Shown one piece after another: positions 10,516 through 34,141 of a stretch of 34,141 bases of DNA. Positions within the stretch are counted from its first letter, which is position 1. Every line of letters begins with the position of its first letter. Source of the stretch: a virus; UHGV virus genome UHGV-0461192; one strand, 5' to 3'. Both the position numbers and the translations under genes were made by a program. Below the pieces are notes generated by a model. It saw only the letters and a list, made by a program, of their open reading frames with translations, did not search any database and was not told where the DNA came from.

Positions 10516-10516
10516 T

Positions 10517-18971: not shown

Positions 18972-19151
18972 ATGAATATTCAAGAATCTATAGGCGAACT
19001 ACCGGAAACATGCCGGGCTGTTATCAAGCGTAAGGACGGACACATCGTTGGTGTGCGTGTTCTGACCGATGATGAGCGGATTGCCAGCCTGATGGCGTTT
19101 CTCGAGTTGGCAGAAATAGCTGGATATACTATTACACCCCCTGACGCGTAA
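18972..19151 (+). CDS. small LexA-regulated protein, candidate antirepressor
   Basis: 59-aa ORF (MNIQESIGELPETCRAVIKRKDGHIVGV...) immediately downstream of the LexA box; function inferred from context. Confidence 0.45.
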   Translation: MNIQESIGELPETCRAVIKRKDGHIVGVRVLTDDERIASLMAFLELAEIAGYTITPPDA

Positions 19152-19228
19152 AACACGGTATAATATCGGTGCTGGATTGAACACCCGGCACCATTTTCTG
19201 AACACTGCCGCGCCACCTGGAGTTAACC

Positions 19229-19825: not shown

Positions 19826-20115
19826 AAAAAATCGACCTGAGAAAAGCTGCACGCAGTCGCGCTTGTACTGTGCGTATCCCCGGTGTGTGCAATCACAATC
19901 CTGAAACCAGCGTACTGGCTCATTATCGTCTCGCCGGAACGTGCGGCACAGCCATCAAACCTCACGATATGCAGGGCGCTATCGCCTGCAGTGCGTGTCA
20001 CGATGCCATCGACGGACGTACAAAAACGGATTACGAGCACGACTCATTGTTGTTGATGCACGCTGAGGGAGTTTTCAGAACACTGGCTATCTGGCGCGAT
20101 GAGGAGTTTATCTGA
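19822..20115 (+). CDS. YbcO-like putative nuclease (DUF1364, Cys-rich)
   Basis: 97-aa ORF with KAARSRACTVRIPGVCNHNPETSVLAHYRL...IACSACHDAIDGRT, closely resembling the remembered DLP12 YbcO. Confidence 0.7.
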   Translation: MKKIDLRKAARSRACTVRIPGVCNHNPETSVLAHYRLAGTCGTAIKPHDMQGAIACSACHDAIDGRTKTDYEHDSLLLMHAEGVFRTLAIWRDEEFI

Positions 20116-20786
20116 TGAGTAACGAGTATTTATTGGAATATACCCGCATAAAACTGCGCGCTGCATTGCGGGATTTGTCTGGTGGTTCTAAGGGGCAACT
20201 GGAAGCATTGTGTGAGCACCCACCGGCAGACAAAAACGCATACCCACGCAAACATATTCACCGTGTGCAGCTGGAGGACCGGACCGTTGATGCTCTGGTT
20301 ACGCCAGTTTACGCTCTGGAAAGTTTCAGCAGACGTCGCCCCGCGCCGCCGATGAGTGATTTTGAATTTGCTGATTCATCCTGGCGGCGTTCTGTGAACT
20401 CGCTGGATGCAAGTCAGCAAGCGTGGTTGCGTTATTGCTACGGTGGTAACCTGGCATTCAAACACCAAACAGCTATTTGTGAGGCTGTCTGGAGTCGCTA
20501 TAAAGGAAACATCCCCGCGTCAACTCAGAGAAAAGTAGTTAAGCGCCTGCTTTCGTTGGTGTGGTTGTCCGTGCAGGCGGTCGCAGCAGCAAATAAACGC
20601 GAGGATTTTAAGGAGATGGCCGGATCTACCCTAGCAGGAATGCTGTCGGTTTCTCGTTCCACCTGGTGCGAAACATACTCCCTGCACTGGGTAGGAATGA
20701 AAGAGGCGGTGAGAGCACTTGATGAAGTGGCACTTCTTGCAACTTTGCATCATTATCAGAACCATTTAGACGACGTTTGCGTATAA
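20115..20786 (+). CDS. putative late-gene antiterminator (Q-like)
   Basis: 223-aa ORF directly upstream of a promoter/terminator region and the lysis cassette; call mainly positional. Confidence 0.5.
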   Translation: MSNEYLLEYTRIKLRAALRDLSGGSKGQLEALCEHPPADKNAYPRKHIHRVQLEDRTVDALVTPVYALESFSRRRPAPPMSDFEFADSSWRRSVNSLDASQQAWLRYCYGGNLAFKHQTAICEAVWSRYKGNIPASTQRKVVKRLLSLVWLSVQAVAAANKREDFKEMAGSTLAGMLSVSRSTWCETYSLHWVGMKEAVRALDEVALLATLHHYQNHLDDVCV

Positions 20787-20854
20787 TGCTTGCAAAAACG
20801 AACAAAATAGGCCATATTTGACGCTAATTTGGTATGTTGCCAGATTTCTAAGAA

Positions 20855-20882
20855 CCTCGCCACGGCGGGGTTTTGTCGTTTC
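20855..20882 (+). terminator. tR'-like intrinsic terminator in the late leader
   Basis: GC hairpin CCTCGCC-ACG-GCGGGG followed by TTTTGTCGTTTC, between the Q-like gene and the holin gene. Confidence 0.5.
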
Positions 20883-20898
20883 TGAATCAGGAAAAATC

Positions 20899-21282
20899 AT
20901 GTCTGAACCTCTAACCGCTGGCGTTGCTGCTGGCTCGGCGGGGGTGACGTTTGCTGCGTTATTTCCTGAGGCAACACCTGCAGTGATGATCTGTGCGCTG
21001 GCAGGCGCAGCTCTCTATGTGTTGTCGTCCGGGCAGCATCGATTCTGGAAGCAGGTTATTTTCGCACTCATTTCGTTTGTTGGCGGTGTGTATTGCGCTG
21101 AGACAGCGTCAGCCATCATTACCGGTATTCTGAACGCGGTGCTGAGTCACCTGAACCCTCCCGTAACAGTAAAAGTCTCTCCCGCCATTGGTGCACTGGT
21201 TGCATCAGTAATCAGCGTTACATCACTGTTGCGGATCATGTCACAAGCTCGTTTATGGAAATCAGATAAGGGGATGAAATAA
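20899..21282 (+). CDS. putative holin
   Basis: 127 aa from ATG 20899 (ORF opens at 20818); multiple hydrophobic helices and charged C-terminus; first gene of the lysis cassette. Confidence 0.55.
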   Translation: MSEPLTAGVAAGSAGVTFAALFPEATPAVMICALAGAALYVLSSGQHRFWKQVIFALISFVGGVYCAETASAIITGILNAVLSHLNPPVTVKVSPAIGALVASVISVTSLLRIMSQARLWKSDKGMK

Positions 21283-21554
21283 TGACCCTGCACTCTGTCC
21301 TCATCAATGCCAATGCAATTATTTGTCTGATGTTGGCACTACGGTTGATGTTTTTTCAAAAAACAGGCCGCTATCGTTTTTTCATCTCACTAACTGCTTA
21401 CCTCGCGATTCTGTCTGCTGCGTGGATAGCCCTACGAATTTTTTACGGGAAATATACGCAGGTTGATCCCGCAGAGTTCTTTCTCAACCTCACCATCTGT
21501 ATTGCTGTCTGGCGGGCACGAGGGAATATTTCAAAAATAACAGGAGACAGGTAA
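21282..21554 (+). CDS. small membrane protein (holin/antiholin-like)
   Basis: 90-aa ORF with two or three hydrophobic segments; start overlaps previous stop. Confidence 0.45.
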   Translation: MTLHSVLINANAIICLMLALRLMFFQKTGRYRFFISLTAYLAILSAAWIALRIFYGKYTQVDPAEFFLNLTICIAVWRARGNISKITGDR

Positions 21555-22033
21555 TGACGGATCCTAAATGGCTAATCGAGGCTCGAAAAAACCTCGGCAT
21601 TCGGGAAATGAAAGGGAAGCAACATGCTGCAGAAATTGTGCAGTACTGGAAAGATATCAAACGCGGCGGCATTAAGGATGACGAAACACCGTGGTGCGCT
21701 GCTTTCACCGGGGCAATGCTGGAACGTGCGGGTATTCGCTCAACGCGTTTTGAGTCTGCGAATTCTTATCTCGATTGGGGTAATGAACTGAAGGAACCCG
21801 CCTATGGATGCATTGCTATTCTGTCTCGGTCTGGCGGTGGTCACGTCGGCTTTGTTGTCGGGAAAAATGCCGCCGGGGATTTAATGATTTTGGGGGGCAA
21901 CCAGGCAGATGAAGTAAATATCAAAGCTTTTCCTCGTTCCCGCGTAACAGGCTACCGCTGGCCAGCAGGTCAAACGGATGTTCCACAATCACTTCCATTG
22001 GTGAATGCTGAGAAATCTATCTCAGAAGCGTAG
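21554..22033 (+). CDS. endolysin, CHAP/NlpC-P60-like peptidase type
   Basis: 159-aa ORF with candidate catalytic Cys (ETPWCAAF) and His (GGGHVGFVVG); sits in the lysis cassette. Confidence 0.6.
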   Translation: MTDPKWLIEARKNLGIREMKGKQHAAEIVQYWKDIKRGGIKDDETPWCAAFTGAMLERAGIRSTRFESANSYLDWGNELKEPAYGCIAILSRSGGGHVGFVVGKNAAGDLMILGGNQADEVNIKAFPRSRVTGYRWPAGQTDVPQSLPLVNAEKSISEA

Positions 22034-22040
22034 GTAAAAC

Positions 22041-22235
22041 GTGAAAAAACTTCTCTTAGCTGTCGCGTTCTTCACGCTGGCAGGCTGCACACATTCGACA
22101 TACACCGAAGCGACTCGCGCTGACGGCAGCAGTATTAAACACGTGATGATCGCGCCGGGTACGAAGATTACTACTGCGAACGGTGGTTGTATTGATTCAA
22201 CCGGGGCAGAGGCTTCATGCCTTGGTGGAAAATAG
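22041..22235 (+). CDS. small lipoprotein (possible spanin-like or accessory protein)
   Basis: 64-aa ORF, GTG start, signal peptide with lipobox LAGC. Confidence 0.45.
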   Translation: MKKLLLAVAFFTLAGCTHSTYTEATRADGSSIKHVMIAPGTKITTANGGCIDSTGAEASCLGGK

Positions 22236-22294
22236 GGTAATTTACTTTAACGAGAGGCCGCCTTTTTGTTTTAAGGCGGCACACATTCAACAGA

Positions 22295-22555
22295 TTAAGG
22301 TAACTGATTTGACCATTTTGTTGCGCGCCAGTTGTTCTGAACCATAATCTTCTGAAGTATCTCATCTGAAGGCTCTGCTTCGCCGCTTAGCCATTCTCTT
22401 AAAGTTGAACAATTTAGATAAGAGGAGTTCGCACGATAAAAAGATACGATGGCGTCCTCTGATAACTTCTCAGGAAACTTTTTTGGGTCAGCTTCTTTTA
22501 ATATTACGCTCATTAAGGCTTCAATTTTTTCTCTGTTCATTTTTTGCGTTCTCAT
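22295..22555 (-). CDS. hypothetical protein on the opposite strand (moron-like)
   Basis: 86-aa ORF in an AT-rich stretch between lysis genes and cos/terminase, convergent with the lysis genes. Confidence 0.4.
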   Translation of the reverse strand: MRTQKMNREKIEALMSVILKEADPKKFPEKLSEDAIVSFYRANSSYLNCSTLREWLSGEAEPSDEILQKIMVQNNWRATKWSNQLP

Positions 22556-22908
22556 GGTTGTTGTTTTTCTGTAATGATATCAATAAGTTCAAGATATATA
22601 CATATATGGAAAACTTGTTCGGTAGTCTATCGATACAGCACAAAAGGATGGCTCGCTGCCAAAGTGAAAGCTTACGCTGATAATCAGATACACAAAGCTG
22701 ATGTATGCAAACAAGTACGCCGCGAGGCTACAGTTGAGTTTGATGAACCTGATGCGAGCCCCTAATTCCTGTCCTGAAAGGGAGATAGCCCCCTGGTCGC
22801 GGGTCCTTTCCGAAATCCAAAACACCGAGGGTCGGTAGACGCGCAAAAACTCGCTCGTTTTTAGTATTTTTTCATTTTGGGTATTTCCGGTTCCGGTGAG
22901 GATTTTTA

Positions 22909-23475
22909 ATGGCAAGTCAGGCTGAGGTTGCAGCACATTTACTGCTATCTGATCGTCGTCTGCGCGATCTCGCAAAACTTCCGGGAGCACCAGTCCCACA
23001 AGGACGTGGTGATTGGGAGCTAGACGCATGGCGCCATTTTTATATTCGTTATCTCCGGAGCAATAGACGCGACACAACTAGTAATGACGAACCGGAAGCG
23101 GGGGACAATTCTCCCGAAAAAAATCGCGAGCAGTGGCTGAAAAATGAGGAACGACAGGAGCGAATCCTGATGGCACGAGTAAAACGCCGCATTCTCGCTA
23201 AACGCTACGCGCCAATTGAATTAATTAGCGTCGCTGTATCTCGCGTCGCCGTTGAATTACGTACCCGCGTCGAGTCGTGGCCACCACGCCTGAAAAAGGT
23301 CTGGCCGGAGATGCCGCAAGAGGCGAGCAGTGTATTACGAGAGGAGCTGGCGATAGCCTTAAATGAGTTGTCAGACATACGAATCGACTTCAGCGATTAC
23401 GATGTCAGCGATATCGAACGCGATCTCGACAGGGTTGAATCCCTTGCGCGTGACGATACCGATGACGGGTGTTGA
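22909..23475 (+). CDS. terminase small subunit (Nu1-like)
   Basis: 188-aa ORF; N-terminal pattern resembles lambda Nu1; overlaps the large-subunit start. Confidence 0.7.
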   Translation: MASQAEVAAHLLLSDRRLRDLAKLPGAPVPQGRGDWELDAWRHFYIRYLRSNRRDTTSNDEPEAGDNSPEKNREQWLKNEERQERILMARVKRRILAKRYAPIELISVAVSRVAVELRTRVESWPPRLKKVWPEMPQEASSVLREELAIALNELSDIRIDFSDYDVSDIERDLDRVESLARDDTDDGC

Positions 23476-25324
23476 GTGGGCTGATAAATATTTTTATCTC
23501 CCTGAGGGCTCCAGCCACATCGCTGGGCACTGGACGACTCAGCCGGTCCAGGTAGTGATGCTCAATATGATGACGAACGACGCGATAAAAATCGTGTCTG
23601 TTCGCAAATCAGCTCGTCTCGGTTATACAAAAATACTCGTCGCGGCGCTGCTCTATTTCGCTGAGCACAAAAAACGTAGTGCCGTGGTCTATCAGCCTAT
23701 CGATGACGAATCGGATGGATTTGTCGCCGACGAGGTTGACCCCGCTATCGCCGAAATGCCAGTGATTCAGAAAATTTTCCCCGACTGGGATAAAAGCAAC
23801 GAGCGTAACAATCTCCAGCGTAAAGAAATGAGCGGCGCGATTCTTGATTTTCGCGGCGCGAGTGCACCAGGAAATTTCCGGCGACTAACGAAACAGGTTG
23901 TCGAGGGTGACGAAGTTGACGGCTGGCCGCTGGAAGTTGCCAAAAAAGGCAAAGGCGAGGGCTCGCCCATCGAACTGGCGCTCGTTCGAATTAAAGGGGC
24001 AGCGTACCCGAAGGCGATTTTTGGTTCGACGCCGACCGTTACCGGCAAAAGTCATATCGAAATGCTCGAAGACGCTGCCGATCTGACGTTTCGTTTTTAC
24101 CTGACATGTCCGCATTGTGGCGAGGAGCAGGTCCTGGTATTTGGTTTCGACGGTATCGAATACGGCCTCAAATGGGATAACAGCCTGCAGACCAATGAGG
24201 CGAAATCGTCGTCCGCGTATTACCAGTGCTGCCACTGCCCGGAACATTTTTACTATCGCGATCTCGAAAAAATGGAGTTCGGGGGGCGCTGGATAGCCGA
24301 GGACTGCACCTGGACCCGAGACGGCATTCATTTTTTTGATCATGACGGTGGCGTCGTTCGCGCGCCGAAACACGCTGCGATCGTGATAAACGCCCTGTAT
24401 TCACTAAACCTCGATGGATGGGGCGAGATTGTCAGCGAGTGGCTGAAAGCGAAAGGCGACCCGCTCAAGGAAAAGACGTTTCATAACACGACGCTCGGCG
24501 AACTCTGGAGCGACGTGGCCAGCGAGCAGCTGGAGCACGATATTCTGGTTAATCGCCGGGAAAAATACGCCAGCCAGGTTCCTGACGGTGTTGTTTATAT
24601 AACCGGCGGCATCGACTCTCAGACGTCCGGGCGCTACGAGTGTTATGTGTGGGGCTGGGGAGCCGAGGAGGAGTGCTGGCTGATTGATAAAACAATCGTC
24701 CTCGGTCGCTACGACGAGGAGGACACGCTGCAGCGCGTCGACGGAGTGATTCGCAAACAATACCGGCGCAGCGACGGGACCACAATCGGCGTCAGTCGCT
24801 GGGCGTGGGATACCGGTGGTATAGATGCGCAGGTCGTTTATAACCGCTCGCTGAAACTCGGTCCGCTGTGGGTCATTCCAATCAAGGGCGCGAGCTCATA
24901 CGGCCAGCCGGTCGTAAATATGCCTCGTACCCGTAACGCGAATAAAGTGTATTTGTCGTTGATTGGGACAGATACAGCGAAAGACCTGCTCGCAATGCGC
25001 CTGCAGCTGGAACCCGACTCCAAATCGGCGACACCAGGTGCGATTCATTTTCCCAACGACGACGAAATATTCAGCACGACAGAGGCAAAACAGCTCGTCT
25101 CCGAGGTTCTGATCCCGAAACTCATTAACGGTCGCGTCGTTTATCGTTGGGACAACCAGGGCCGGCGAAATGAGGCGCTCGACTGCTGGGTGTACGGACT
25201 GGCAGCGCTGCGTATCAGTAAAATTCGTTTCCAGCTCAATCTCGAGACGCTCGCTGAGCAACGGAAAAAATCACAAAACAAACTGTCTCTCGAGGAGATG
25301 GCCAGAATGCTCGGAGGGAGCTAA
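23462..25324 (+). CDS. terminase large subunit (lambda gpA-like)
   Basis: VEWADKYFYLPEGSSHIAGHW...VSVRKSARLGYTKILV...FYLTCPHCGEEQ...DTGGIDAQVVYNRS...IPIKGASSYGQPV closely parallels lambda gpA; start taken at ATG 23462, ORF opens at 23363. Confidence 0.93.
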   Translation: MTGVEWADKYFYLPEGSSHIAGHWTTQPVQVVMLNMMTNDAIKIVSVRKSARLGYTKILVAALLYFAEHKKRSAVVYQPIDDESDGFVADEVDPAIAEMPVIQKIFPDWDKSNERNNLQRKEMSGAILDFRGASAPGNFRRLTKQVVEGDEVDGWPLEVAKKGKGEGSPIELALVRIKGAAYPKAIFGSTPTVTGKSHIEMLEDAADLTFRFYLTCPHCGEEQVLVFGFDGIEYGLKWDNSLQTNEAKSSSAYYQCCHCPEHFYYRDLEKMEFGGRWIAEDCTWTRDGIHFFDHDGGVVRAPKHAAIVINALYSLNLDGWGEIVSEWLKAKGDPLKEKTFHNTTLGELWSDVASEQLEHDILVNRREKYASQVPDGVVYITGGIDSQTSGRYECYVWGWGAEEECWLIDKTIVLGRYDEEDTLQRVDGVIRKQYRRSDGTTIGVSRWAWDTGGIDAQVVYNRSLKLGPLWVIPIKGASSYGQPVVNMPRTRNANKVYLSLIGTDTAKDLLAMRLQLEPDSKSATPGAIHFPNDDEIFSTTEAKQLVSEVLIPKLINGRVVYRWDNQGRRNEALDCWVYGLAALRISKIRFQLNLETLAEQRKKSQNKLSLEEMARMLGGS

Positions 25325-25557
25325 TGACGTCGCGCGAGGTTTTAACAGAACGACTGCTGGAAGCGGAAATCGCTCTGCACAAATTATTAACGGGTAAATC
25401 GACCGTGTCGCTGTCTCACGGCGATTCAGCAGGAAATAACCGGAGCTATCAATACTCGCAGGCGAGTATTGAGCAGCTCCGAACGTACATTATCGAGCTG
25501 AAATCACAGCTCGGTCTGAGTACGGGACGCCGTCGGCCCGTGGGAGTTCGATTATGA
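25324..25557 (+). CDS. head-tail joining protein (lambda gpW-like)
   Basis: 77-aa ORF; EIALHKLLTGKSTVSLSHGD...SIEQLRTYIIELKSQLG parallels lambda gpW. Confidence 0.8.
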   Translation: MTSREVLTERLLEAEIALHKLLTGKSTVSLSHGDSAGNNRSYQYSQASIEQLRTYIIELKSQLGLSTGRRRPVGVRL

Positions 25558-27128
25558 CTGCTCCGCAGCAGCTGCTCGGGCCTGACGGTAAAACGCCACT
25601 ACGCCGTTACGCGGGGTATAACGGCGGCGGTCCCGGTTTCGGTGGCCAGCTGATTGACTGGAACGCACCACAGCAGAGCGCCGACGCAGCACTGTTGCCG
25701 AATTTTTATCGCGGTAACGCGCGAGCAGACGATCTCGTTCGCAATAACGGCGTCGCGTCGAACGCCGTGCAGCTGCACCAGGATCATATCGTCGGCAATC
25801 TGTTTAAGTTGAGTTATCGCCCTAACTGGCGTTACCTCGGCATATCTCGCGAGGACGCCAGGGCGCTGGCGCGTGACGTCGAGGTAGCGTGGACTGAATA
25901 CGCCGAGGACCCTCACTGCACGATTGATATCGAGCGGAAACGGACGTTCACAATGATGATCCGCGAGGGCGTGGCTACTCACGCTTTCAACGGTGAAACC
26001 TGCGTACAACCAGTCTGGGAGAGTAGTGCCGGCAGCGTTTTTCGGACGCGATTCAAAATGGTCTCACCGAAACGGATTCGAAATCCGGGTTACGCAGCTG
26101 ACACTCAATTTCGCCGCGCCGGTGTTGATATCGATAAAAACGGGGCCGCGGTCGGGTACTGGATAGCCGAGGATACTTACCCTCTCGGCGGAGTCGGTAA
26201 ATGCCGGCGTATCCCAGCACAGCTCAGCAGCGGCAGACACGCATTCATCCACATATTCGAGCCGCTCGAGGACGGACAGACCCGCGGGGACAATATTTTT
26301 TACAGCGTCATGGAGCGCCTGAAAATGCTCGACACACTGCAGCAAACACAACTGCAGAGCGCCATTGTGAAGGCGATGTATGCCGCGACAATCGAATCAG
26401 AGCTCGACAGCCAGCAGGCGTTTGAATATATCGCCGGCGCGGGTACTGATATCGACTCGAACCCGCTGAATTCGTTTATTCAGAGTTACGTGACGTACTA
26501 CAACGGCGCAAATATCAAGCTCGGTGGTGTGAAAGTTCCCCACCTGCATCCCGGCGACAAACTCAGTTTACAGACCGCTCAGAATGCTGATGCTGGTTTT
26601 AGTTCACTGGAAAAATCACTCCTGCGTTACGTTGCAGCTGGCGTTGGCGCGTCATACGAAGAACTTAGCCGGGACTACAGCCAGGTCAGTTACTCCAGCG
26701 CCCGGGCCAGTGCTAACGTCAGCTGGCGATTTTTCATGGGGCGTCGACGTTTTATCGCCGCGCGACAGGCGTCGCTGATGTTCTGCTGCTGGTTTGAAGA
26801 GGCGCTGGCACGCGGAATTATCACCCTGCCACGCTCAGCTGTCCGGTCGTTTTATGAGGCGCGGAACTCCTGGACGAACGCGCTCTGGATCGGCGCTGGT
26901 CGCATGGCGATTGATGGGCTGAAAGAGGTTCAGGAGAGCGCCATGCGCATCACAACTGGCCTCAGCACGTATCAGAACGAACTGGCGCTGCAGGGACAGG
27001 ATTACGAGGAGGTTATGGAGCAGCAGGAATACGAAATTCAGCGCCGGCGTGAAATGGGGCTGAGCGAACCGTCATGGTCTGTATCTCACCCCTCAAATAC
27101 CAACGATAACGGCTGGGGAGGTAACTGA
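25554..27128 (+). CDS. portal protein (lambda gpB-like)
   Basis: 524-aa ORF with long collinear matches to lambda gpB (LLGPDG...LREYAGY.GGG.GFGGQL; LPNFYRGNARADDLVRNNG; RKRTFTMMIREGVA; GRMAIDGLKEVQE). Confidence 0.93.
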   Translation: MTAPQQLLGPDGKTPLRRYAGYNGGGPGFGGQLIDWNAPQQSADAALLPNFYRGNARADDLVRNNGVASNAVQLHQDHIVGNLFKLSYRPNWRYLGISREDARALARDVEVAWTEYAEDPHCTIDIERKRTFTMMIREGVATHAFNGETCVQPVWESSAGSVFRTRFKMVSPKRIRNPGYAADTQFRRAGVDIDKNGAAVGYWIAEDTYPLGGVGKCRRIPAQLSSGRHAFIHIFEPLEDGQTRGDNIFYSVMERLKMLDTLQQTQLQSAIVKAMYAATIESELDSQQAFEYIAGAGTDIDSNPLNSFIQSYVTYYNGANIKLGGVKVPHLHPGDKLSLQTAQNADAGFSSLEKSLLRYVAAGVGASYEELSRDYSQVSYSSARASANVSWRFFMGRRRFIAARQASLMFCCWFEEALARGIITLPRSAVRSFYEARNSWTNALWIGAGRMAIDGLKEVQESAMRITTGLSTYQNELALQGQDYEEVMEQQEYEIQRRREMGLSEPSWSVSHPSNTNDNGWGGN

Positions 27129-28435
27129 TGCCGTGGAACAATTTTCCGCACCTCGCCGCCAGGGCGTTCAATCAACCGCTTTTGCTGGAGCCCACCTACG
27201 CGCGGGTATTTTTTTCGGCGCTGAGCGACCGGTTCGGTACCGGGCGACTGATTGATACAGCGTCTGGAGAGGTAATGAACAGCGACGAAATGAACGCGCT
27301 CGCGATGGGGTGGGACAGCAGCGAGCGAACACGCCAGAAATCGTATCGCGTGGAGCGTGGTATAGCCGTTCTGCCGGTTACCGGGACGCTGGTTCATAAA
27401 TTGGGTTATATCAACCCAGTTAGCGGGATGAGCGGTTACAACGGAATCGCAAAACGCCTGCAGCAGGCGATTTCTGATCCCGATGTAAGAGGGGTCCTGC
27501 TTGATATTGACTCCCCTGGCGGTGAAGTCGCCGGCGCGTTTGATACTGCTGATTTAATCGCCCGGGCGCGAGAGCAAAAACCTGTGTGGGCGCTGGCCAG
27601 CGATACGGCCTGCAGCGCTGCCTATTTGCTGGCGTCAGCGTGTTCGCGCCGGCTGATAACGCAGACAGGCACAGTTGGTTCAATCGGTGTCCTGATGGCT
27701 CACCGCTGCGTCGAAAAAGCGCTGGAGATTGCTGGCGTCGACGTGACGCTGATTTACGCCGGCGCGCACAAAGTTGACGGGAACCCGTATTCCCAGCTGC
27801 CAGGCGACGTTCGCGACGAATTCCAGCTGAGTATTAACAGCACGCGCGAGCAGTTCGCGCAAAAAGTCTCGGATTATACCGGGCTGAAAAAATCCAGGGT
27901 GCTGGCCACGGAAGCTGCAGTATTTATCGGCGCGGACGCGATTAAATCTGGTCTCGCTGATCAACTCGTTAATTACGCGGACGCTATCGCAGTGATGGCC
28001 GACGCACTGAAACCAAAAATGGAGCGCTTTATGTCTGGTACAGAAACCACGGCGGAGACCACGACCACAGAACAAACCGCGACCACGACTACTGTCGCGC
28101 AGGTTGAGTTTAACACGGAGCAGATTCGCGCGGACGCCGCATCAAGCGAACTGGCGCGTGTGATGGCCATCATCAATTGTCCCGAAGCTGTTGGGCGCGA
28201 GGCGCAGGCAAAAGCGCTCGCTGGCGTCCCCGGGATGACGGTCGGGCAGGCGCAGGTAGTCCTCGCTGCAGCACCTAAAACGGCGCAGGCGCGGACAGAA
28301 ACGGCGCTCGATACACTAATGAGCACTGAATCACCAGCGACTATTCAGGATGCTGGCAGTACTACGGCAACAGGAACAACCGCAAACGTCTCGATGCTGG
28401 TTGCTGCAGGGCGTTCAATTTTAGGGGATGAATAA
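27128..28435 (+). CDS. head maturation protease / scaffold (lambda gpC-like, S49 ClpP-type)
   Basis: 435-aa ORF; GIAVLPVTGTLV...MSGYNGIAKRLQQA, KPVWALASDTACSAAYLLASA and TGSIGV... parallel lambda gpC. Confidence 0.9.
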   Translation: MPWNNFPHLAARAFNQPLLLEPTYARVFFSALSDRFGTGRLIDTASGEVMNSDEMNALAMGWDSSERTRQKSYRVERGIAVLPVTGTLVHKLGYINPVSGMSGYNGIAKRLQQAISDPDVRGVLLDIDSPGGEVAGAFDTADLIARAREQKPVWALASDTACSAAYLLASACSRRLITQTGTVGSIGVLMAHRCVEKALEIAGVDVTLIYAGAHKVDGNPYSQLPGDVRDEFQLSINSTREQFAQKVSDYTGLKKSRVLATEAAVFIGADAIKSGLADQLVNYADAIAVMADALKPKMERFMSGTETTAETTTTEQTATTTTVAQVEFNTEQIRADAASSELARVMAIINCPEAVGREAQAKALAGVPGMTVGQAQVVLAAAPKTAQARTETALDTLMSTESPATIQDAGSTTATGTTANVSMLVAAGRSILGDE

Positions 28436-28764
28436 TGACTACAGAAACGTATAGCCCGGACGATTTTATTCTTGGGCCTGACCTTGTTGTCACGACCGTC
28501 GGTCATTTTCAGGGCGGGATCAACGTACCCCGGCTGACACCGATTATGCTCGACGCTACTGTCGGGACGTTTAAGGTTTGGGACGGCTCAGTCGGTAAAG
28601 CTATTGGCCTCACTGCCACCGCAGTTAATACTGGCTCCAGTTCTGCAGACTGCTCGTACTATAAATCAGGCTCGTTCCGTTACACGGCGATTAACTGGGG
28701 TACGGTTACCGACGTAGCTAAACGCAAATCAGCATTTGCGGGTACGCCGATCAGCGTCGGCTGA
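28435..28764 (+). CDS. head decoration protein (lambda gpD-like)
   Basis: 109-aa ORF; YYKSGSFRYTAINW...KRKSAFAGTPISVG parallels lambda gpD (FYKSGTFRYEDVLW...KKRTAFAGTAISIV). Confidence 0.88.
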   Translation: MTTETYSPDDFILGPDLVVTTVGHFQGGINVPRLTPIMLDATVGTFKVWDGSVGKAIGLTATAVNTGSSSADCSYYKSGSFRYTAINWGTVTDVAKRKSAFAGTPISVG

Positions 28765-28783
28765 TAGCAAAAAACTCAAAACA

Positions 28784-28808
28784 AGCCGCCTCCGGGCGGT
28801 TTTTTTAT
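28784..28808 (+). terminator. intra-operon hairpin plus T-run between the D-like and E-like genes
   Basis: CCGCC-TCCG-GGCGG stem followed by TTTTTTTAT. Confidence 0.35.
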
Positions 28809-28822
28809 AACAGGATATATAA

Positions 28823-29857
28823 ATGAGCGATTCGTTTACTACGTCAGAACTGATTACCGCGACACAGCAGGTATTTAAGTTCAATCCGTTGTTTTTAAAG
28901 CTGTTTTTCCGTGAGACCTACACGTTTACGAGCGAAGAGGTTTTTCTGGATAAAATCCCGGGAAAAGTGAACATGGCCGTGTACTGCGCGCCGATGATCA
29001 CCGGCAAAGTTGACCGCACTCGCGGCTATTCAACGAACCATTTCAAACCGGGTTACACGAAACCCAAGCACACGATCAATCCGAATATGAGCATCAAGCG
29101 CGCAGCCGGTGAGCAGATTGGCCAGCCGGAAACGCCGGTCGAACGTCGTGCAAAAATCATCATGCAGAACCTGCTTGATGAGGAACTGAGCATCAGCCAG
29201 CTCGAAGAGTTCCAGGCGGTACAGGCTGTTCTGTACGGTAAATACACTGTTTCCGGCAGCAATATCGAGACCTATGAGATCGACATGAGCCGCAGCGCGA
29301 CGAATAACGTCACTCAGTCCGGTTCGACAGCCTGGTCGACTCAGGACGCGGAAACGTATGACCCGAGCGACGATATTGAATCCTACGCGGACCTCGCCTC
29401 CGGTGCGGTTAACGTGATCATCATGGATGGTAAAGCCTGGAAGCAGTTGAAGCGTTTTAAAAAATTCTGGACGGCACTGGATACGCGCCGTGGCTCAAAC
29501 AGCCAGCTCGAGGTCGCGCTGAAAAACCTGGGCGACGTTGTCAGCTTTAAAGGCTACTACGGCGACACTGCGCTGTTTGTCTACAAAGGGCAATACCTCG
29601 ACCCGGTAACAGACACTGAAACGCGTTATATGCCGGATAACACGATGATCCTTGGCAACACAAAAAACCGCGGGCTCCGCACTTATGGCGCAATTCAGGA
29701 CGAAGACGCGCTGAAAGAGGGTATTTCCGAAGCGACGCGCTATCCAAAAGTCTGGACCACTACCGGTGATCCGGCAGTGACGCAAACAATGACGCAATCC
29801 GCGCCAGCAATGGTCCTCACGGACGCCGACGCGTTCGTTGTCGTAAAAATCGCGTAA
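28823..29857 (+). CDS. major capsid protein (lambda gpE-like)
   Basis: 344-aa ORF collinear with lambda gpE (FKFNPLFLKLFFRE, IPGKVNMA, DTRRGSNSQLE, LPDNTMILGNTKNRGLRTYG, YPKVWTTTGDPA). Confidence 0.95.
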   Translation: MSDSFTTSELITATQQVFKFNPLFLKLFFRETYTFTSEEVFLDKIPGKVNMAVYCAPMITGKVDRTRGYSTNHFKPGYTKPKHTINPNMSIKRAAGEQIGQPETPVERRAKIIMQNLLDEELSISQLEEFQAVQAVLYGKYTVSGSNIETYEIDMSRSATNNVTQSGSTAWSTQDAETYDPSDDIESYADLASGAVNVIIMDGKAWKQLKRFKKFWTALDTRRGSNSQLEVALKNLGDVVSFKGYYGDTALFVYKGQYLDPVTDTETRYMPDNTMILGNTKNRGLRTYGAIQDEDALKEGISEATRYPKVWTTTGDPAVTQTMTQSAPAMVLTDADAFVVVKIA

Positions 29858-29880
29858 GAGTCGAAAGGCTCTTTTTTGTT
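29856..29880 (+). terminator. weak hairpin plus T-run after the major capsid gene
   Basis: AAGAG-TCGAAAGG-CTCTT followed by TTTTGTT. Confidence 0.3.
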
Positions 29881-29891
29881 AAGGAATCAAC

Positions 29892-30311
29892 ATGAGCACA
29901 AAAACAGAATTGCTGGCGCGTATTGACGATCTGAGCGCTCAGCTCGGTCGCGAATTACCGCGCAGCGGGACTATTGCGGAACTGGAATCAATCGTTGCCG
30001 GCGCTGAGTCAGAGCTCGATATTCTGAACGAGCAATCCGGTGACGCGGGAGGCATCGAGATTACAGTGAATACTGCGTCCGGGACCGATAATGAACTCGC
30101 TCAATCAATCGCGAGCGCTATCGTTTCACAGTCACAAGAGCAGGAGCTCGCACCGGCTACGCGCCGCGTCAAGTTGCGTAACACGCTGGACGTTTATCAC
30201 TACGTGAACGGGCGTCGCGTTCGCGAGATTGTTGCCGCAGGCCGTGAAATTGTTGTTGATTCACCGGAGGTCGCAGACCTTATCGCAGCTGATCACGTTT
30301 ACGCTCTATGA
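29892..30311 (+). CDS. DNA packaging protein FI-like
   Basis: 139-aa ORF; N-terminus TELLARIDDLSAQLGREL...ELESIVAGAESEL parallels lambda gpFI. Confidence 0.75.
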   Translation: MSTKTELLARIDDLSAQLGRELPRSGTIAELESIVAGAESELDILNEQSGDAGGIEITVNTASGTDNELAQSIASAIVSQSQEQELAPATRRVKLRNTLDVYHYVNGRRVREIVAAGREIVVDSPEVADLIAADHVYAL

Positions 30312-30688
30312 GCTACTACGATGACCTCCGGGCCGGCGACGAGGAGATGATCCGTGAGTGGGGACGGCCCGTTAAATTACGCGGTAAAACCGACCCCATT
30401 ATCGCTATTTTCAACGAGCCTTACGCGCGCGTTGACGTTCCTCACGCTGGTTTTATTACCGGTACAGTAACGAGCCTGACGGCGCTCTCGGACGACGTCG
30501 CTGGCGTTGTTGCGCGTGACGTCGTCCAGGTTCCAAAGCAGCGCAGCATCGAACCTGACGGCTCTGTTACCTGGTCTGGCTGGACCGATTACGTGGTTAA
30601 AGAGCCTCAACCTGATGGCACAGGGCTCACGAATATTTTTTTAGAGCCTCACACGTCCAGCGAAAACAGCGAGTATTCAAAATACTAA
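30308..30688 (+). CDS. head-tail connector FII-like
   Basis: 126-aa ORF at the position of lambda gpFII with weak N-terminal resemblance; 4-nt overlap with the FI-like gene. Confidence 0.55.
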   Translation: MSYYDDLRAGDEEMIREWGRPVKLRGKTDPIIAIFNEPYARVDVPHAGFITGTVTSLTALSDDVAGVVARDVVQVPKQRSIEPDGSVTWSGWTDYVVKEPQPDGTGLTNIFLEPHTSSENSEYSKY

Positions 30689-30719
30689 GTGGGACCTCGG
30701 TCCCACTTAAGGGGGAACC

Positions 30720-31400
30720 GTGGCCGATTTACGTAGTAACGCGCAGATGTTCGATATCGATGTTTCGGCGCTGGAGCAGCTCAGAGTCGAAATCAGCGCG
30801 ACGCAACATCAAATGTTAATGGTATACAACAGGGCGCTGAACCGAACTGCAAAACATATGCACCGAATTTCAGCAGGAATGATTTTGACTGCACTGGCAG
30901 CTAAAAATCATAAGGCCGTAGATAAACGAATCAAGCCGTTCATTAAGCGCCGTAATTTTACAAAAGAAGGGGCAGGAGACCTGAGCAGCGCCAAGCTCTG
31001 GTACGGTCTGAATGATTTCCGGGTATCTGAGCTAAAGGGGCGATTACAAAATCCACGGAGGCAAAAACAGCCTCGCGATCTTGAGACCGGCCTGTTTTTG
31101 AAAACCAAAAAAGGCGCTAGAGGGGCAACTTTTACACCCAAAAGTGCAGGGCTGGCGATGATGAGTTGGCCCGATTCATTCGTAGCGAAACGCTACGGTG
31201 CGAAAAGTGTCTGGATTCGACTGGATCGCGGAGGAATCGAAGAGGCTCGCGTACCTGTGCACGACGCGCTGGAGGATGCTATCGATGATTATATTTTTGA
31301 AAACATTGGCCCTGTTTTTATGGGCTTTTTTGAGAAAGATTTGCGCGGTCGCGTGAAAGGTAATGTCCACGTAGACCCAAAAACAGGTAAACGATTATGA
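30720..31400 (+). CDS. putative virion/tail assembly protein (minor tail protein Z-like?)
   Basis: 226-aa basic ORF, GTG start after an AAGGGGGAA RBS; sits after the head-completion genes. Confidence 0.45.
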   Translation: MADLRSNAQMFDIDVSALEQLRVEISATQHQMLMVYNRALNRTAKHMHRISAGMILTALAAKNHKAVDKRIKPFIKRRNFTKEGAGDLSSAKLWYGLNDFRVSELKGRLQNPRRQKQPRDLETGLFLKTKKGARGATFTPKSAGLAMMSWPDSFVAKRYGAKSVWIRLDRGGIEEARVPVHDALEDAIDDYIFENIGPVFMGFFEKDLRGRVKGNVHVDPKTGKRL

Positions 31401-31933
31401 GCGGACTGGATGCATTTGACGAATATCTTGATCGCGTTAAAGGCGCGGTTTTACAAATACCGTTCATCAAAACATTCGGAATTTATCCGGAAATTCCGGC
31501 TGGATTTGAAACGCCAGCTCTGTTCCTGGAAATCAGCAACTGGTCACAGAGTGACGAATCGGTTCCAGGCTCAATTCAGTCAGTCGAGCTGTCGTGTAAT
31601 TTGTATTTGCTGCGTGAATTTGCAGCTGATCAGTACGGACTGAAATCGCAGAATGCAGCGCTCTATATGACGAGCTGGATCAATGGGCGAATGTTCGGTC
31701 CCGGAACTAAACCGGCAAAATTCAGCGACGCGGAACCGTGCGACTGGATTAAAAACGGGCAGTCAGTCGGTTCGCATTCAGTTCAGTGCGTGTCGTTCAC
31801 GCAGGTTGTAGGCGTTGGTCCAGATATTTTCGATTATCCCTCACAGGGGACCCTGAAAAATATATACGTCGGAATAGCACCAGATATCGGCGCAGAACAT
31901 GAGGGCGACTATTATGGCCCAATCGGACGATGA
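31397..31933 (+). CDS. putative tail-completion/virion protein
   Basis: 178-aa ORF overlapping neighbours; no recognisable motif. Confidence 0.4.
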   Translation: MSGLDAFDEYLDRVKGAVLQIPFIKTFGIYPEIPAGFETPALFLEISNWSQSDESVPGSIQSVELSCNLYLLREFAADQYGLKSQNAALYMTSWINGRMFGPGTKPAKFSDAEPCDWIKNGQSVGSHSVQCVSFTQVVGVGPDIFDYPSQGTLKNIYVGIAPDIGAEHEGDYYGPIGR

Positions 31934-32420
31934 ATATGCTGCAGCGGAGAACGCGCGCAGGCTGCGTGACGCAGTTAAACGCGGCACGATAGCTGCAGTT
32001 AAAATGAATCCTCCACGCTGCCGAGTCTCATTTGGTGGCGAACACCAGTCAGGCTGGCTGCAGTGGTTTACTCACGCCACCTCAGAACGCGTCGACTGGA
32101 GCGCACCATCAGTGGGCGATCCCGTTACTGTTGTTTCTGAGGGTGGGGATACGCGGAACGGTGTAGTTATGCTCGGGCTGCACATTGACGACAAAGCTCC
32201 GCCAAGCAATGACCCCCATGATCATGTCACTGCATACTGTGACGGGGCTACGATGACGTATAACACAAAAAATCACACTCTGACTTGTCATGGCTACCCC
32301 ATTTGCACGCTGAGTTTGATTTCTGTGCAGTACGGAGCCTGCCCGACGCCAGCGATCACATCCTCTGTTGGCGATATCAGAATCACACGTTCAGTGCCGT
32401 CACGATGTATCGCGTCGTAA
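31914..32420 (+). CDS. baseplate hub/spike protein gpV-like, N-terminal portion only (interrupted at the inverted-repeat junction)
   Basis: PRCRVSFGGEHQSGWLQWFTHATSERVDWSAPSVGDPV...HVTAYCDGATMTYNTKNHTLT parallels the N-terminal half of P2 gpV; after 32284 the frame runs antisense through the 3' end of the J-like gene. Confidence 0.6.
   Translation: MAQSDDEYAAAENARRLRDAVKRGTIAAVKMNPPRCRVSFGGEHQSGWLQWFTHATSERVDWSAPSVGDPVTVVSEGGDTRNGVVMLGLHIDDKAPPSNDPHDHVTAYCDGATMTYNTKNHTLTCHGYPICTLSLISVQYGACPTPAITSSVGDIRITRSVPSRCIAS
32230..32284. repeat. inverted repeat, left copy (55 bp, perfect)
   Basis: CTGCATACTGTGACGGGGCTACGATGACGTATAACACAAAAAATCACACTCTGAC is the exact reverse complement of 34087-34141. 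Confidence 0.95.
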
Positions 32421-33214
32421 ATTCCTGACAGAGCTGCCGTCGCTCCGATTTTATGTTGCGTATCCACATATATCGCCAAATCGCTCTGAGCACCGTTAAG
32501 CAAAACGTTCTGGTCGGGTCCGAGCCCGGCTACGATAACGGCCTCAACCCGGTAATTCAGGTTCGACGCAGGTTTTACAGTCACGAAATCAGTCAGCGGT
32601 CGAGTATCGTCAGGAGACAGGGCCGCATTCACTGTATTCAGTAGTGATTGAGGCGGAGTGCCGTCGCCGGTTCGCGACAAGACATACATATCGACGTATC
32701 CAGGCTGGGTCACCGGCGGGCCGTACGCCTGAGCTGTCAGAACGTCGGGATCACTCGACAGCGCGAAATAGTTATAGGCGTTCGTACTGCCGGCAGTATT
32801 CCGCGCATACCATGATAGCTGTATTCGGTGTCGATACTCGTCGTCACTCTCGTAAACAGCCTCAGTCGGGGGAATTACATCGGGATTAGCTGGCGTTATC
32901 AACAGCCGCAGGCAGTCAAAATTAGCGCCAATCTGGTCGAGGTCACTCCCCTTTGCAAACGCGAGCAATACAGCGAGCATCCCCTGATTTACCCGAGCTG
33001 TAATAATGATTTCTCTGTATGCAACTATTTCCAGCAGTTTAACGGCCGGGTCTGACTCCAGGAGTGCGTTAAATTGTGGATATAATATCTGCAGCTCTGA
33101 CAGTAGATTAGATTTAACATCTGAAAATAACGGGGTTTTAACGAATGCTGGCGGCGGCAGCAGACTCATATCAATAGTTTTCACTATCGAATTCTGAACT
33201 GTTGATGTTATCAA
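32294..33214 (-). CDS. baseplate assembly protein J-like (P2 gpJ family)
   Basis: 306-aa ORF collinear with P2 gpJ (LLEIVAYREIIITARVNQG, GSDLDQIGANFDCLRLLITPA, PPTEAVYESDDEYRHRIQ, PYCTEIKLSV). Confidence 0.85.
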   Translation of the reverse strand: MITSTVQNSIVKTIDMSLLPPPAFVKTPLFSDVKSNLLSELQILYPQFNALLESDPAVKLLEIVAYREIIITARVNQGMLAVLLAFAKGSDLDQIGANFDCLRLLITPANPDVIPPTEAVYESDDEYRHRIQLSWYARNTAGSTNAYNYFALSSDPDVLTAQAYGPPVTQPGYVDMYVLSRTGDGTPPQSLLNTVNAALSPDDTRPLTDFVTVKPASNLNYRVEAVIVAGLGPDQNVLLNGAQSDLAIYVDTQHKIGATAALSGIYDAIHRDGTERVILISPTEDVIAGVGQAPYCTEIKLSVQMG

Positions 33215-33552
33215 AATATCAGCTCCATATTATTAAACTCTAATCGCTGTTGTGTTTCGATATCTGTTGCGATAATTAATATTGTTATTTTCCCGATATC
33301 CACTGCTAACACATTTATTCTGTCAATTCTGACGCGTGGTTCCCATCGTGCTATTGCGCCAGCGCTTTCCATGATTATTCGCATAGCAAGCGACGGATCT
33401 GTGGGATTATCAACAAGATCAAATAATTTGCTGCCATATTCCGGCAGCATTACACGCGTCCCCAGCGGGGTCGTTAAAATATCAACGATAGACTGACGAA
33501 TGTGATCAGTCCCCGATAAAAGTTTACCGGTGTTACGGTCCATTCCAAGCAT
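33211..33552 (-). CDS. baseplate wedge protein W-like (P2 gpW / GPW-gp25 family)
   Basis: MLGMDRNTGKLLSGTDHIRQSIVDILTTPLGTRVM...WEPRV parallels P2 gpW; internal Met chosen as start, ORF opens at 33600. Confidence 0.8.
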   Translation of the reverse strand: MLGMDRNTGKLLSGTDHIRQSIVDILTTPLGTRVMLPEYGSKLFDLVDNPTDPSLAMRIIMESAGAIARWEPRVRIDRINVLAVDIGKITILIIATDIETQQRLEFNNMELIF

Positions 33553-33554
33553 CT

Positions 33555-34141
33555 TTACGCCATTGGTTGGTTCGGTTGTTGAGTTTCCCCGTCCGGACAT
33601 ATATGAGTGTGTCCGTTATACGTTGTGCGGACTTCAGTTATTGTGCCTTGTCGGTCCTGCACCTCTTGCCCTGCTAACACACTACCGCGAGTTGTGATAT
33701 TACCTGTTCCACCGTTATCTCCAGTGACAGAAATATCGTTACGGAATGTCGCTAATTTATCTACTACTAATGTCTCGGTAATATGCGTTGGACCAGCTAG
33801 TGTTATACCACCCGGAGCCCACGCGCTGATTGTTTGAGCTGTCAGCGATATTCTGTTCGCAGCAGTAACACTAACAGAACTCGTTGCTATAACGTTCACT
33901 AAATCAGCATGTGCGTTAATTGTATCTGTCGCTGTGACATTAATAATATCAGCGTCTGCGTTAATTAATTTCCCACCATGGATATTAACTACATTTTCGC
34001 TATTAATAGTAACATCTGCGCGTCCAAATATTTCTATTTCAGACTCACCGAGTATTTTTACCACGCCGTCCGGTACGCCCTGCCATGTCAGAGTGTGATT
34101 TTTTGTGTTATACGTCATCGTAGCCCCGTCACAGTATGCAG
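33555..34141 (-). CDS. baseplate hub/spike protein gpV-like, C-terminal portion (frame open to the window edge)
   Basis: ORF begins MTYNTKNHTLTWQGVPDG..., continuing the sequence at which the plus-strand V fragment breaks; ends TYNGHTHICPDGETQQP, like the P2 gpV C-terminus. Confidence 0.65.
   Translation of the reverse strand, partial: AYCDGATMTYNTKNHTLTWQGVPDGVVKILGESEIEIFGRADVTINSENVVNIHGGKLINADADIINVTATDTINAHADLVNVIATSSVSVTAANRISLTAQTISAWAPGGITLAGPTHITETLVVDKLATFRNDISVTGDNGGTGNITTRGSVLAGQEVQDRQGTITEVRTTYNGHTHICPDGETQQPNQPMA
34087..34141. repeat. inverted repeat, right copy (55 bp, truncated by the window end)
   Basis: reverse complement of 32230-32284; identity runs to the last base of the window, so the true repeat may be longer. 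Confidence 0.95.

What the first reader, a model, noticed from the sequence alone, without database searches (positions are those of the whole stretch)
22909..34141. Lambda-type head module joined to P2-type baseplate genes
The terminase-to-FII genes are collinear with lambda (Nu1, A, W, B, C, D, E, FI, FII), but what follows is a P2/Mu-type baseplate (V, W, J), not lambda Z-U-V-G-T-H. Either this is a mosaic virion with a lambda-like capsid and a contractile-tail baseplate, or two different elements abut here, consistent with the inverted-repeat junction. The two ORFs between FII and V (30720-31933) are unassigned and could be the adaptor proteins that make such a hybrid work.
Basis: partly seen in the sequence, partly recalled or inferred. 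Interest (0 to 1): 0.5.

Follow-up and report, generated by a model that had tools for sequence, protein, structure and literature searches.

The report
Known lambda-head/P2-tail prophage, misassembled end
This is the virion-gene block of a common, already sequenced E. coli prophage that pairs lambda-type head genes with a P2-type contractile tail, and the back-to-front baseplate genes at its end are most likely an assembly artefact at the tip of a SPAdes contig, so the finding is ordinary.

Summary
The gene calls hold. Window 22909-30688 encodes lambda-family Nu1, A, W, B, C, D, E, FI and FII, followed by P2-family V, W and J.

Three corrections:
1. The ORF after FII (30720-31400) is a lambda gpZ homologue, a tail completion protein. 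The next ORF (31397-31933) is a tail terminator of the R-pyocin collar (PA0615) family. Neither is a novel adaptor.
2. No second element abuts here. Window 1-32284 is collinear with a ~43-kb prophage at tRNA-Leu/yecA, found in hundreds of complete E. coli genomes. In those copies V-W-J-I-H, sheath, tube, tape measure, U, X and D follow on one strand.
3. Window 32281-34141 is that prophage's own DNA, 100% identical, in reverse orientation. It is joined by a 4-nt microhomology that cuts V at codon 123.

The window's last 55 nt are the exact reverse complement of the 55 nt before the junction. The window end is also the end of a SPAdes-style contig (ENA ERZ807452 NODE_9), the only contig on record with this junction. 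This pattern fits a k=55 assembly-graph artefact.

Lambda/P2 chimeric phages are already described (Wolbachia WO, Xylella XfP1/2). Low interest.

The parts
22909..23475 (+). Small terminase subunit (Nu1 homologue), 188 aa
   Evidence: phrog_57, E=3e-39 over the full length. Lambda Nu1 hits the same PHROG. No Pfam hit. RefSeq calls only 23170-23475.
23462..25324 (+). Large terminase subunit (gpA)
   Evidence: Pfam GpA_ATPase 2.8e-46 and GpA_nuclease 5.9e-64. 43% identical to lambda A.
25324..25557 (+). gpW head-tail adaptor
   Evidence: Pfam gpW 6e-16. 35% identical to lambda W.
25554..27128 (+). Portal protein, lambda family (gpB)
   Evidence: Pfam Phage_portal_2 7.7e-91. 64% identical to lambda B.
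27128..28435 (+). Prohead protease/scaffold (gpC type, S49)
   Evidence: Pfam Peptidase_S49 2.1e-37. 56% identical to lambda C.
28435..28764 (+). Head decoration protein (gpD)
   Evidence: Pfam HDPD 3.8e-07. 40% identical to lambda D.
28823..29857 (+). Major capsid protein (gpE)
   Evidence: Pfam Phage_cap_E 1.5e-59. 56% identical to lambda E.
29892..30311 (+). DNA-packaging protein FI
   Evidence: Pfam Packaging_FI 1.1e-08. phrog_92 4e-31.
30308..30688 (+). Head closure / head-tail joining protein FII
   Evidence: Pfam Phage_attach 2.8e-11. phrog_82 1e-25, the family lambda FII hits.
30720..31400 (+). Tail completion protein, lambda gpZ family (226 aa)
31397..31933 (+). Tail terminator / collar protein, R-pyocin PA0615 family (178 aa)
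31914..32284 (+). Baseplate spike/hub V, N-terminal fragment (codons 1-123 of 300), reading on into 44 nonsense codons to 32420
   Evidence: Pfam Phage_base_V 1.4e-12. The last base collinear with the intact prophage is 32284. Intact V is 300 aa in L001/L002.
32281..32284 (.). Fold-back junction; 4-nt microhomology TGAC shared by both sides
   Evidence: Base-by-base comparison with L002. The junction 32-mer is absent from three public collections.
32281..32291 (-). First 11 nt of baseplate gene I (start of the inverted block, = L002 34090-34080)
   Evidence: Coordinate mapping.
32294..33214 (-). Baseplate protein J (306 aa), inverted relative to the operon
   Evidence: Pfam Baseplate_J 2.4e-20. 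41% identical to P2 J. 100% identical to L002 33157-34077 in reverse.
33211..33552 (-). Baseplate wedge protein W (gp25 family), inverted
   Evidence: Pfam GPW_gp25 2.4e-16. 37% identical to P2 W.
33555..34141 (-). Second, inverted partial copy of V (codons ~106-300), running off the window and contig end
   Evidence: Identical to L002 32230-32816 in reverse. It crosses the breakpoint intact.
34087..34141 (.). Terminal 55 nt, the exact reverse complement of window 32230-32284 (the 55 nt just before the junction)
   Evidence: Longest exact inverted match is k=55. The window end is the end of ENA ERZ807452 NODE_9_length_35430.

Best explanation
The region is the late (virion) operon of a known ~43-kb temperate E. 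coli prophage integrated at tRNA-Leu next to yecA. As a stable lineage trait, this phage combines a lambda-family packaging, head and neck set (Nu1, A, W, B, C, D, E, FI, FII, Z) with a P2/R-pyocin-family contractile tail. The tail genes are a collar-type terminator, V, W, J, I, fibre, sheath, tube, E, T, U, X and D.

Inferred mechanism (not shown): heads and tails assemble separately. The tail is capped by the PA0615-like terminator hexamer (ORF 31397-31933), with the gpZ-like completion protein (ORF 30720-31400) at the tube top. The gpW/gpFII-finished lambda-type head docks on that terminator.

The reversed V'-W-J block at 32281-34141 is not biology of the phage. It is the phage's own next 1.8 kb, traversed backwards by the assembler after a chimeric junction, and the contig stops when it re-enters its own k=55 node.
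For: Head and neck families:
- Searches place the head and neck ORFs in the lambda families. Lambda Nu1, FII and Z hit the same PHROGs as the window ORFs.

Intact collinear copies:
- ON470624.1 and E. coli SK1144 carry sheath, tube, tape measure, U, X and D downstream on one strand.
- Window 1-32298 is 99.985% identical to SK1144.
- 410 complete genomes carry the left 17 kb, and 583 carry the V-W-J DNA.
- 21 IMG/VR loci plus phages yong2 and Chris1 all have FII-Z-collar-V on one strand. In the relatives at 60-70% identity, head and tail genes have diverged together.

ORF assignments:
- Searches support the gpZ family for ORF 30720-31400.
- Searches support a terminator/collar for ORF 31397-31933.

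Artefact:
- The inverted block is 100% identical to the prophage's own 34090-32230.
- There is a 4-nt microhomology and an exact 55-nt terminal reverse-complement overlap ending at the last collinear base.
- The window end is the end of a contig with a SPAdes-style name, the only contig on record that encodes the chimeric V ORF.
- The junction is absent from IMG/VR, GTDB representative genomes and JGI metagenomes.
- None of the 583 genomes that carry this DNA matches across the junction.

Literature:
- Lambda/P2 chimeras are already described (PMC3235987).
- P2 gpR is homologous to the tailocin cap PA0615 (bioRxiv 10.64898/2026.09.14.750843).
Against: - No read-level data were available, so a real rearrangement in that sample cannot be excluded.
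- 55 nt could in principle be a coincidence.
- No particle of this specific prophage has been shown. The GenBank 'vB_EcoM' records are PHASTER predictions from SPAdes assemblies.
- The AF2 model of the 178-aa ORF is poor (pLDDT 57.6), so its fold matches rest on a weak model, although they agree with the sequence profile.
- Direct hhalign of the ORF families against single lambda Z, lambda U, P2 R and P2 S sequences found nothing.
Confidence: 0.85

Rival explanations
1. The fold-back is a genuine in vivo rearrangement in the sequenced strain or population. A template-switch or snap-back inverted duplication at a 4-nt microhomology truncates V and disables the tail module.
For: The junction is real in the contig, and it has the short microhomology typical of template switching. 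A de Bruijn graph would look the same for a true inverted duplication.
Against: The junction is unique to one contig among all the collections searched. The contig ends exactly one k-mer (55 nt) past the return to the branch node, and the wild-type V adjacency across 32284/32285 is present in the same contig on the other strand.
Confidence: 0.12
2. Two different mobile elements abut at ~32290: a lambda-like prophage and an unrelated, oppositely oriented P2-like remnant.
For: The strand switch and the inverted repeat at the junction, as read from sequence alone.
Against: The minus-strand block is 100% identical to the DNA that directly follows V(N) in intact copies of the same prophage. It also contains the continuation of the very same V gene. 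All 23 related loci have the genes collinear.
Confidence: 0.01
3. V(C)-W-J is a programmed invertible segment, a Gin/Cin/Pin-type switch like the Mu G or P1 C segments.
For: Invertible segments do occur in the tail regions of Mu, P1 and e14 (established knowledge).
Against: No invertase gene is annotated in the intact prophage. The wild type has no inverted repeats at the two ends, only 4 nt of shared sequence. The structure is a fold-back with a duplication, not a clean inversion, because the window runs 55 nt past the would-be second junction. The breakpoint destroys an essential gene, and no other genome shows the flipped state.
Confidence: 0.01
4. The head-tail combination is a recent one-off recombinant between a lambdoid phage and a P2-like phage, not an established lineage.
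For: General mosaicism of temperate phages. L022 shows that head modules can be swapped against this tail.
Against: Relatives at 60-70% protein identity keep the same combination, with head and tail genes diverged in parallel (L020-L027). Identity to lambda and to P2 themselves is only 26-64%. Isolated phages yong2 and Chris1, and the WO phages, share the Z-terminator-V arrangement.
Confidence: 0.03

Closest known systems
The same prophage in complete E. coli genomes (e.g. SK1144, NZ_AP018784.2 2040324-2083100; many ST131/O25b strains) and GenBank ON470624.1 'Escherichia phage vB_EcoM-705R4'
   Same: Identity is 99.96-100% over window 1-32284, and 100% over the inverted block when it is flipped. 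Gene content and the att site at tRNA-Leu/yecA are the same.
   Different: In those records V is intact (300 aa) and V-W-J-I run in the operon's direction. The window's junction is absent from them.
Hafnia phage yong2, Citrobacter phage Chris1, Vibrio phage Valp1
   Same: They have a gpA-type terminase, gpW, a lambda-family portal, FII, a Z-like protein (31%), a collar-like protein (28-33%) and V in the same order, plus P2-type tail genes, with the sheath 41-46% identical.
   Different: The head uses a Clp-protease/capsid fusion instead of C-D-E. The tail gene order is V, then sheath through D, then W-J-I-H.
Wolbachia phage WO and Xylella XfP1/XfP2 lambda/P2 chimeras
   Same: They are described in the literature as having lambda-like packaging and head genes with P2-like baseplate and tail genes. 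WORiC has lambda-family portal, C, minor tail protein Z, a hypothetical protein, then V (PMC3235987). The WO sheath is ~39% identical over two thirds of the protein.
   Different: The hosts are distant, the sequences are far diverged, and WO carries eukaryote-association genes.
Phage lambda
   Same: Ten collinear homologous genes, Nu1 to Z, plus a Q antiterminator upstream.
   Different: The U slot holds a PA0615-type collar (phrog_1072) rather than gpU (phrog_37). There is no V-G-T-H-M-L-K-I-J siphovirus tail.
Phage P2 and the R2 pyocin
   Same: V, W, J, I, H (N-terminus), FI, FII, U, X and D homologues at 26-41% identity. The terminator belongs to the pyocin collar family.
   Different: There are no P2 head or packaging genes (Q, P, O, N, M, L), and no gpR (phrog_65) or gpS (phrog_26) homologue detectable by sequence. 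Unlike a pyocin, it has a full head module.

Membership tests
Lambda-type packaging/head/neck module | Collinear Nu1, A, W, B, C, D, E, FI, FII homologues | tested here: met
   Pfam and PHROG hits for all nine; BLASTP finds seven of them in lambda.
Lambda-type packaging/head/neck module | gpZ tail completion protein directly after FII | tested here: met
   phrog_27 hit at 4e-43, the same PHROG as lambda Z. A family member hits Pfam Minor_tail_Z.
Lambda-type packaging/head/neck module | gpU-family tail terminator after Z | tested here: not met
Lambdavirus / lambdoid siphovirus | Non-contractile tail genes V-G-T-H-M-L-K-I-J | tested here: not met
   Intact copies carry sheath, tube and a P2-type baseplate instead.
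Peduoviridae (P2-like phages) | Six shared orthologues: large and small terminase, portal gpQ, scaffold, capsid gpN, completion protein gpL (definition quoted in bioRxiv 10.64898/2026.09.14.750843) | tested here: not met
   No BLASTP hit at E<=0.01 to P2 Q, P, O, N, M or L. The portal and capsid are Pfam lambda families.
Peduoviridae (P2-like phages) | P2-type contractile tail genes V, W, J, I, FI, FII, U, X, D | tested here: met
   26-41% identity to each in the intact copy. Pfam hits for V, W and J in the window.
R-type pyocin / tailocin | Tail cluster without head and packaging genes | tested here: not met
   A full head module is present. Only the collar homology is shared.
Programmed invertible tail segment (Mu G / P1 C / e14 P) | Serine invertase gene next to the segment, and inverted repeats at both ends | tested here: not met
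   No invertase is annotated in the intact prophage. Only a 4-nt microhomology is present, and the structure is a fold-back rather than a reciprocal inversion.
De Bruijn-graph contig-end fold-back artefact | The structure lies at a contig terminus, and the terminal reverse-complement overlap equals an assembler k value | tested here: met
   The window end is the end of NODE_9_length_35430. The exact overlap is 55 nt and ends at the last collinear base.
De Bruijn-graph contig-end fold-back artefact | The junction is supported only by rare chimeric reads, while the wild-type adjacency has full depth | not testable with these tools

The most novel reading that the evidence does not exclude
The neck cassette travels with the P2-type tail and acts as a portable docking unit. 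It comprises the C-terminal part of FII, the gpZ-like completion protein and the PA0615-like collar. This cassette would let different lambda-type head modules be swapped onto the same contractile tail, with the recombination joint lying inside FII.

The one supporting case is IMG/VR contig L022. It has a yong2-type terminase, portal and capsid, an FII whose last ~78 residues match this phage, and then this phage's Z, collar and V (63-91% identical).
Probability: 0.35. Interest if true: 0.3.

Novelty: already known. Interest (0 to 1): 0.1.

Why it matters
The value is mainly quality control and annotation.
- The apparent junction of two elements is a contig-end fold-back and should not be counted as a structural variant or a module boundary.
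- Two proteins that RefSeq calls 'hypothetical' in a prophage carried by roughly 8-11% of complete E. coli genomes (410-583 of 5,426) can now be named. One is a gpZ-family tail completion protein. The other is a PA0615-type tail terminator, whose family phrog_1072 currently has 'unknown function'.
- The head-tail mosaic itself is a textbook example of modular phage evolution, already described for WO and Xylella phages.

Tried and rejected
- hhalign of the ORF226 family against lambda Z, and of the ORF178 family against lambda U, P2 R and P2 S, each as a single sequence, gave no signal. The links came from PHROG/Pfam profiles, a wider HMM profile and fold search instead.
- phmmer of ORF226 and of FII against PDB sequences gave nothing useful.
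- No Pfam family covers the ORF178 family.
- The junction 32-mer had 0 hits in IMG/VR, GTDB representative genomes and JGI metagenomes.
- The first look-up of the chimeric ORF, using the 31899 start, found nothing. The 31914 start found the source contig.
- The search for related loci with the 70-sequence alignment failed because it had no conserved stretch.
- A full-text search for 'lambda-like head' plus 'P2-like tail' gave 0 papers, and nothing specific turned up on an ST131 leuZ/yecA prophage.
- I considered whether the site at V codon ~106 is a special DNA end, because four other short contigs start at that same codon. I rejected this because a control start 10 codons away also gives four contigs.
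- I considered a simple inversion of V(C)-W-J and rejected it. The window continues 55 nt past the would-be second junction into V(N) in reverse.
Full report
**What is in the window**

The + strand of 22909-30688 carries nine tightly packed ORFs. Pfam and PHROG assign them to the following families:
- small terminase (phrog_57)
- gpA terminase, ATPase and nuclease domains
- gpW
- lambda-family portal
- S49 protease
- decoration protein D
- major capsid protein E
- FI
- FII (Phage_attach, phrog_82)

Lambda's own Nu1, FII and Z hit the same PHROGs. BLASTP identity to lambda is A 43%, W 35%, B 64%, C 56%, D 40%, E 56% and FI 32%. The 'lambda-type head module' is therefore real.

V, W and J are also real. 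Pfam gives Phage_base_V, GPW_gp25 and Baseplate_J, and identity to P2 V, W and J is 35-41%.

**The two unassigned ORFs**

ORF 30720-31400 (226 aa) is a gpZ-family tail completion protein.
- It matches phrog_27 ('tail completion or Neck1') over its full length at 4e-43. Lambda gpZ matches the same PHROG at 3e-69.
- Its relative P0038 (38% identical, E=8e-29) passes Pfam's threshold for Minor_tail_Z over the full length (47.7 bits).

Collinearity with lambda therefore extends to Z.

ORF 31397-31933 (178 aa) is a tail terminator of the R2-pyocin collar family.
- It has no Pfam family and falls in phrog_1072, 'unknown function'.
- Its only PDB sequence match is the R2-pyocin collar PA0615. The E-value is 0.019 with the single sequence and 9.6e-4 with a 10-sequence profile.
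- A 70-sequence profile gives 8e-33, full length. That profile was built from an exhaustive search of 1.8 billion representatives.
- A recent P2 structure preprint states that P2's terminator gpR is homologous to this tailocin cap and is the ring that joins the adaptor to the sheath (bioRxiv 10.64898/2026.09.14.750843).

The two ORFs are thus the ordinary tail-end parts, a completion protein and a terminator. By family they are lambda-Z-type and pyocin-collar-type, not P2 gpS (phrog_26) or gpR (phrog_65).

**What the element is**

- Window 16815-32298 is 99.96% identical to GenBank ON470624.1.
- Window 1-32298 is 99.985% identical to a prophage in E. coli SK1144.
- There the prophage spans about 43 kb, from tRNA-Leu to yecA, with a 125-bp att repeat (window 398-522 = L002 43009-43133).
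- After ORF178 it encodes, all on one strand: V (300 aa), W, J, I, a fibre protein, a 129-aa protein, sheath, tube, E, tape measure, U, X and D.
- 410 complete E. coli genomes carry the left 17 kb at high coverage, and 583 carry the V-W-J DNA.
- All 21 IMG/VR relatives keep the order FII-Z-collar-V-W-J-I-H-sheath-tube-T-U-X-D on one strand. This includes relatives at only 60-70% protein identity, in which head and tail genes have diverged in parallel.
- The isolated phages Hafnia yong2 and Citrobacter Chris1 share the terminase-W-portal...FII-Z-collar-V arrangement with P2-type tails.
- The literature already describes lambda/P2 chimeras in Wolbachia WO, where WORiC has the order portal, C, Z, hypothetical, V, and in Xylella XfP1/2 (PMC3235987).

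The mosaic is an established and known lineage. It is neither a Lambdavirus, because it has a contractile tail, nor a member of Peduoviridae. It lacks all six head and packaging orthologues that define Peduoviridae.

**The inverted-repeat junction**

- The last base collinear with the intact prophage is 32284, which is codon 123 of V.
- From 32281 onward the window is the exact reverse complement of the prophage's own positions 34090 down to 32230. This match is 1861 nt at 100%.
- That block contains the first 11 nt of gene I, all of J, all of W, and V back to codon ~106.
- The two sides share only TGAC.
- The window runs 55 nt past the point where a simple inversion would rejoin gene I. The structure is therefore a fold-back with a duplication, not an inversion.
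- The duplicated arm is exactly 55 nt (32230-32284 = reverse complement of 34087-34141). It ends at the last collinear base and at the last base of the window.
- A look-up of the chimeric V ORF found exactly one contig in the gene-position index: ENA ERZ807452 NODE_9_length_35430_cov_15.457922. Its last 12,228 nt are identical to the last 12,228 nt of the window. The window is thus contig positions 1290-35430, and its right end is the contig end.
- From general knowledge, that name format is SPAdes's and 55 is a standard SPAdes k value. A contig that crosses a chimeric edge, runs backwards along the next edge and stops on re-entering its own branch node would end in exactly this way.
- The junction 32-mer is absent from IMG/VR, GTDB representative genomes and JGI metagenomes. 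None of the 583 complete genomes that carry this DNA matches across it.
- Four other short contigs start at the same V codon, but a control start 10 codons away gives the same number. That coincidence is chance.

I rate an assembly or chimeric-read artefact at about 0.85. A genuine template-switch rearrangement in that sample is about 0.12. Only the reads can separate the two.

**Mechanism (inferred)**

- A lambda-type prohead is built from portal B, protease/scaffold C and capsid protein E. It is filled by the Nu1/A terminase with FI, stabilised by D, and closed by W and FII.
- The contractile tail is built on a P2-type baseplate (V spike, D hub, W-J-I wedges, fibre) around the tape measure. 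It is capped by the gpZ-like protein and the PA0615-like collar.
- FII then docks on the collar.
- One IMG/VR relative, L022, carries a yong2-type head module. Its FII matches this phage only in its last ~78 residues, and this phage's Z, collar and V follow (63-91% identical). This hints that the neck cassette travels with the tail.
- No virion of this exact prophage has been demonstrated. The GenBank 'vB_EcoM' entries are PHASTER predictions from SPAdes assemblies.

**Verdict**

- The gene identifications are right.
- The 'mosaic virion' reading is right but already known.
- The 'two elements abut' reading is wrong.
- The strand flip is best explained as a contig-end artefact.
- Interest is low. 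The only additions are names for two hypothetical proteins and a flag on a misassembly.

Noticed in passing
window 12778-12855 and 16201-16278, enclosing 12856-16200: A 78-nt direct repeat (89.7% identical) flanks a low-GC island (GC 0.33-0.35 at 14001-16000). The island holds an LprI-domain protein (12927-13850, minus strand; Pfam 4e-07). It also holds a 232-aa ORF (15039-15737) with only a weak PADLOC hit to a DRT-associated TM protein (1.8e-05). It looks like a cargo or moron insertion in the early region.
   Followed up: partly
window 16815-17303 (minus strand) and 16200-16805 (minus strand): The ImmA/IrrE-type metallopeptidase (Pfam Peptidase_M78 8e-18) matches the PADLOC CapP model at 2.4e-25. 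The adjacent 201-aa ORF has no hit in Pfam or PADLOC. This may be a protease/repressor pair controlling induction or the neighbouring cargo island.
   Followed up: partly
window 22909-23475: RefSeq annotates only 23170-23475 as 'hypothetical protein'. The full 188-aa ORF matches the small-terminase family phrog_57 end to end, as lambda Nu1 does. The small terminase therefore appears to be under-called and unnamed in RefSeq.
   Followed up: partly
window 398-522 (and L002 43009-43133): A 125-bp exact direct repeat marks the prophage ends. It overlaps the 3' part of tRNA-Leu (367-453), with yecA beyond the right end. This is the att site.
   Followed up: partly
L022 (IMGVR_UViG_2529293142_000021) 2700-10537: A hybrid relative. 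Its terminase (76%), portal (58%) and Clp-capsid fusion (59%) resemble Hafnia phage yong2. The last ~78 residues of its FII, and its Z (63-68%), collar (63%) and V (91%), resemble this prophage. The Z gene is split into 132-aa and 80-aa ORFs.
   Followed up: partly
L005 (Hafnia phage yong2) and L006 (Citrobacter phage Chris1): Tail gene order differs from this prophage. In these phages V is followed directly by sheath, tube, T, U, X and D, and W-J-I-H come last. V therefore stays with the neck block while the rest of the baseplate has moved.
   Followed up: no
L038-L047 (NCBI E. coli assemblies, e.g. GCA_053291625.1): In several chromosome-scale assemblies the related prophage has V split into 122/127-aa and 169-aa ORFs, and its Z-like gene, J and I are fragmented. 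These are either decaying copies or frameshift errors of long-read assemblies.
   Followed up: no
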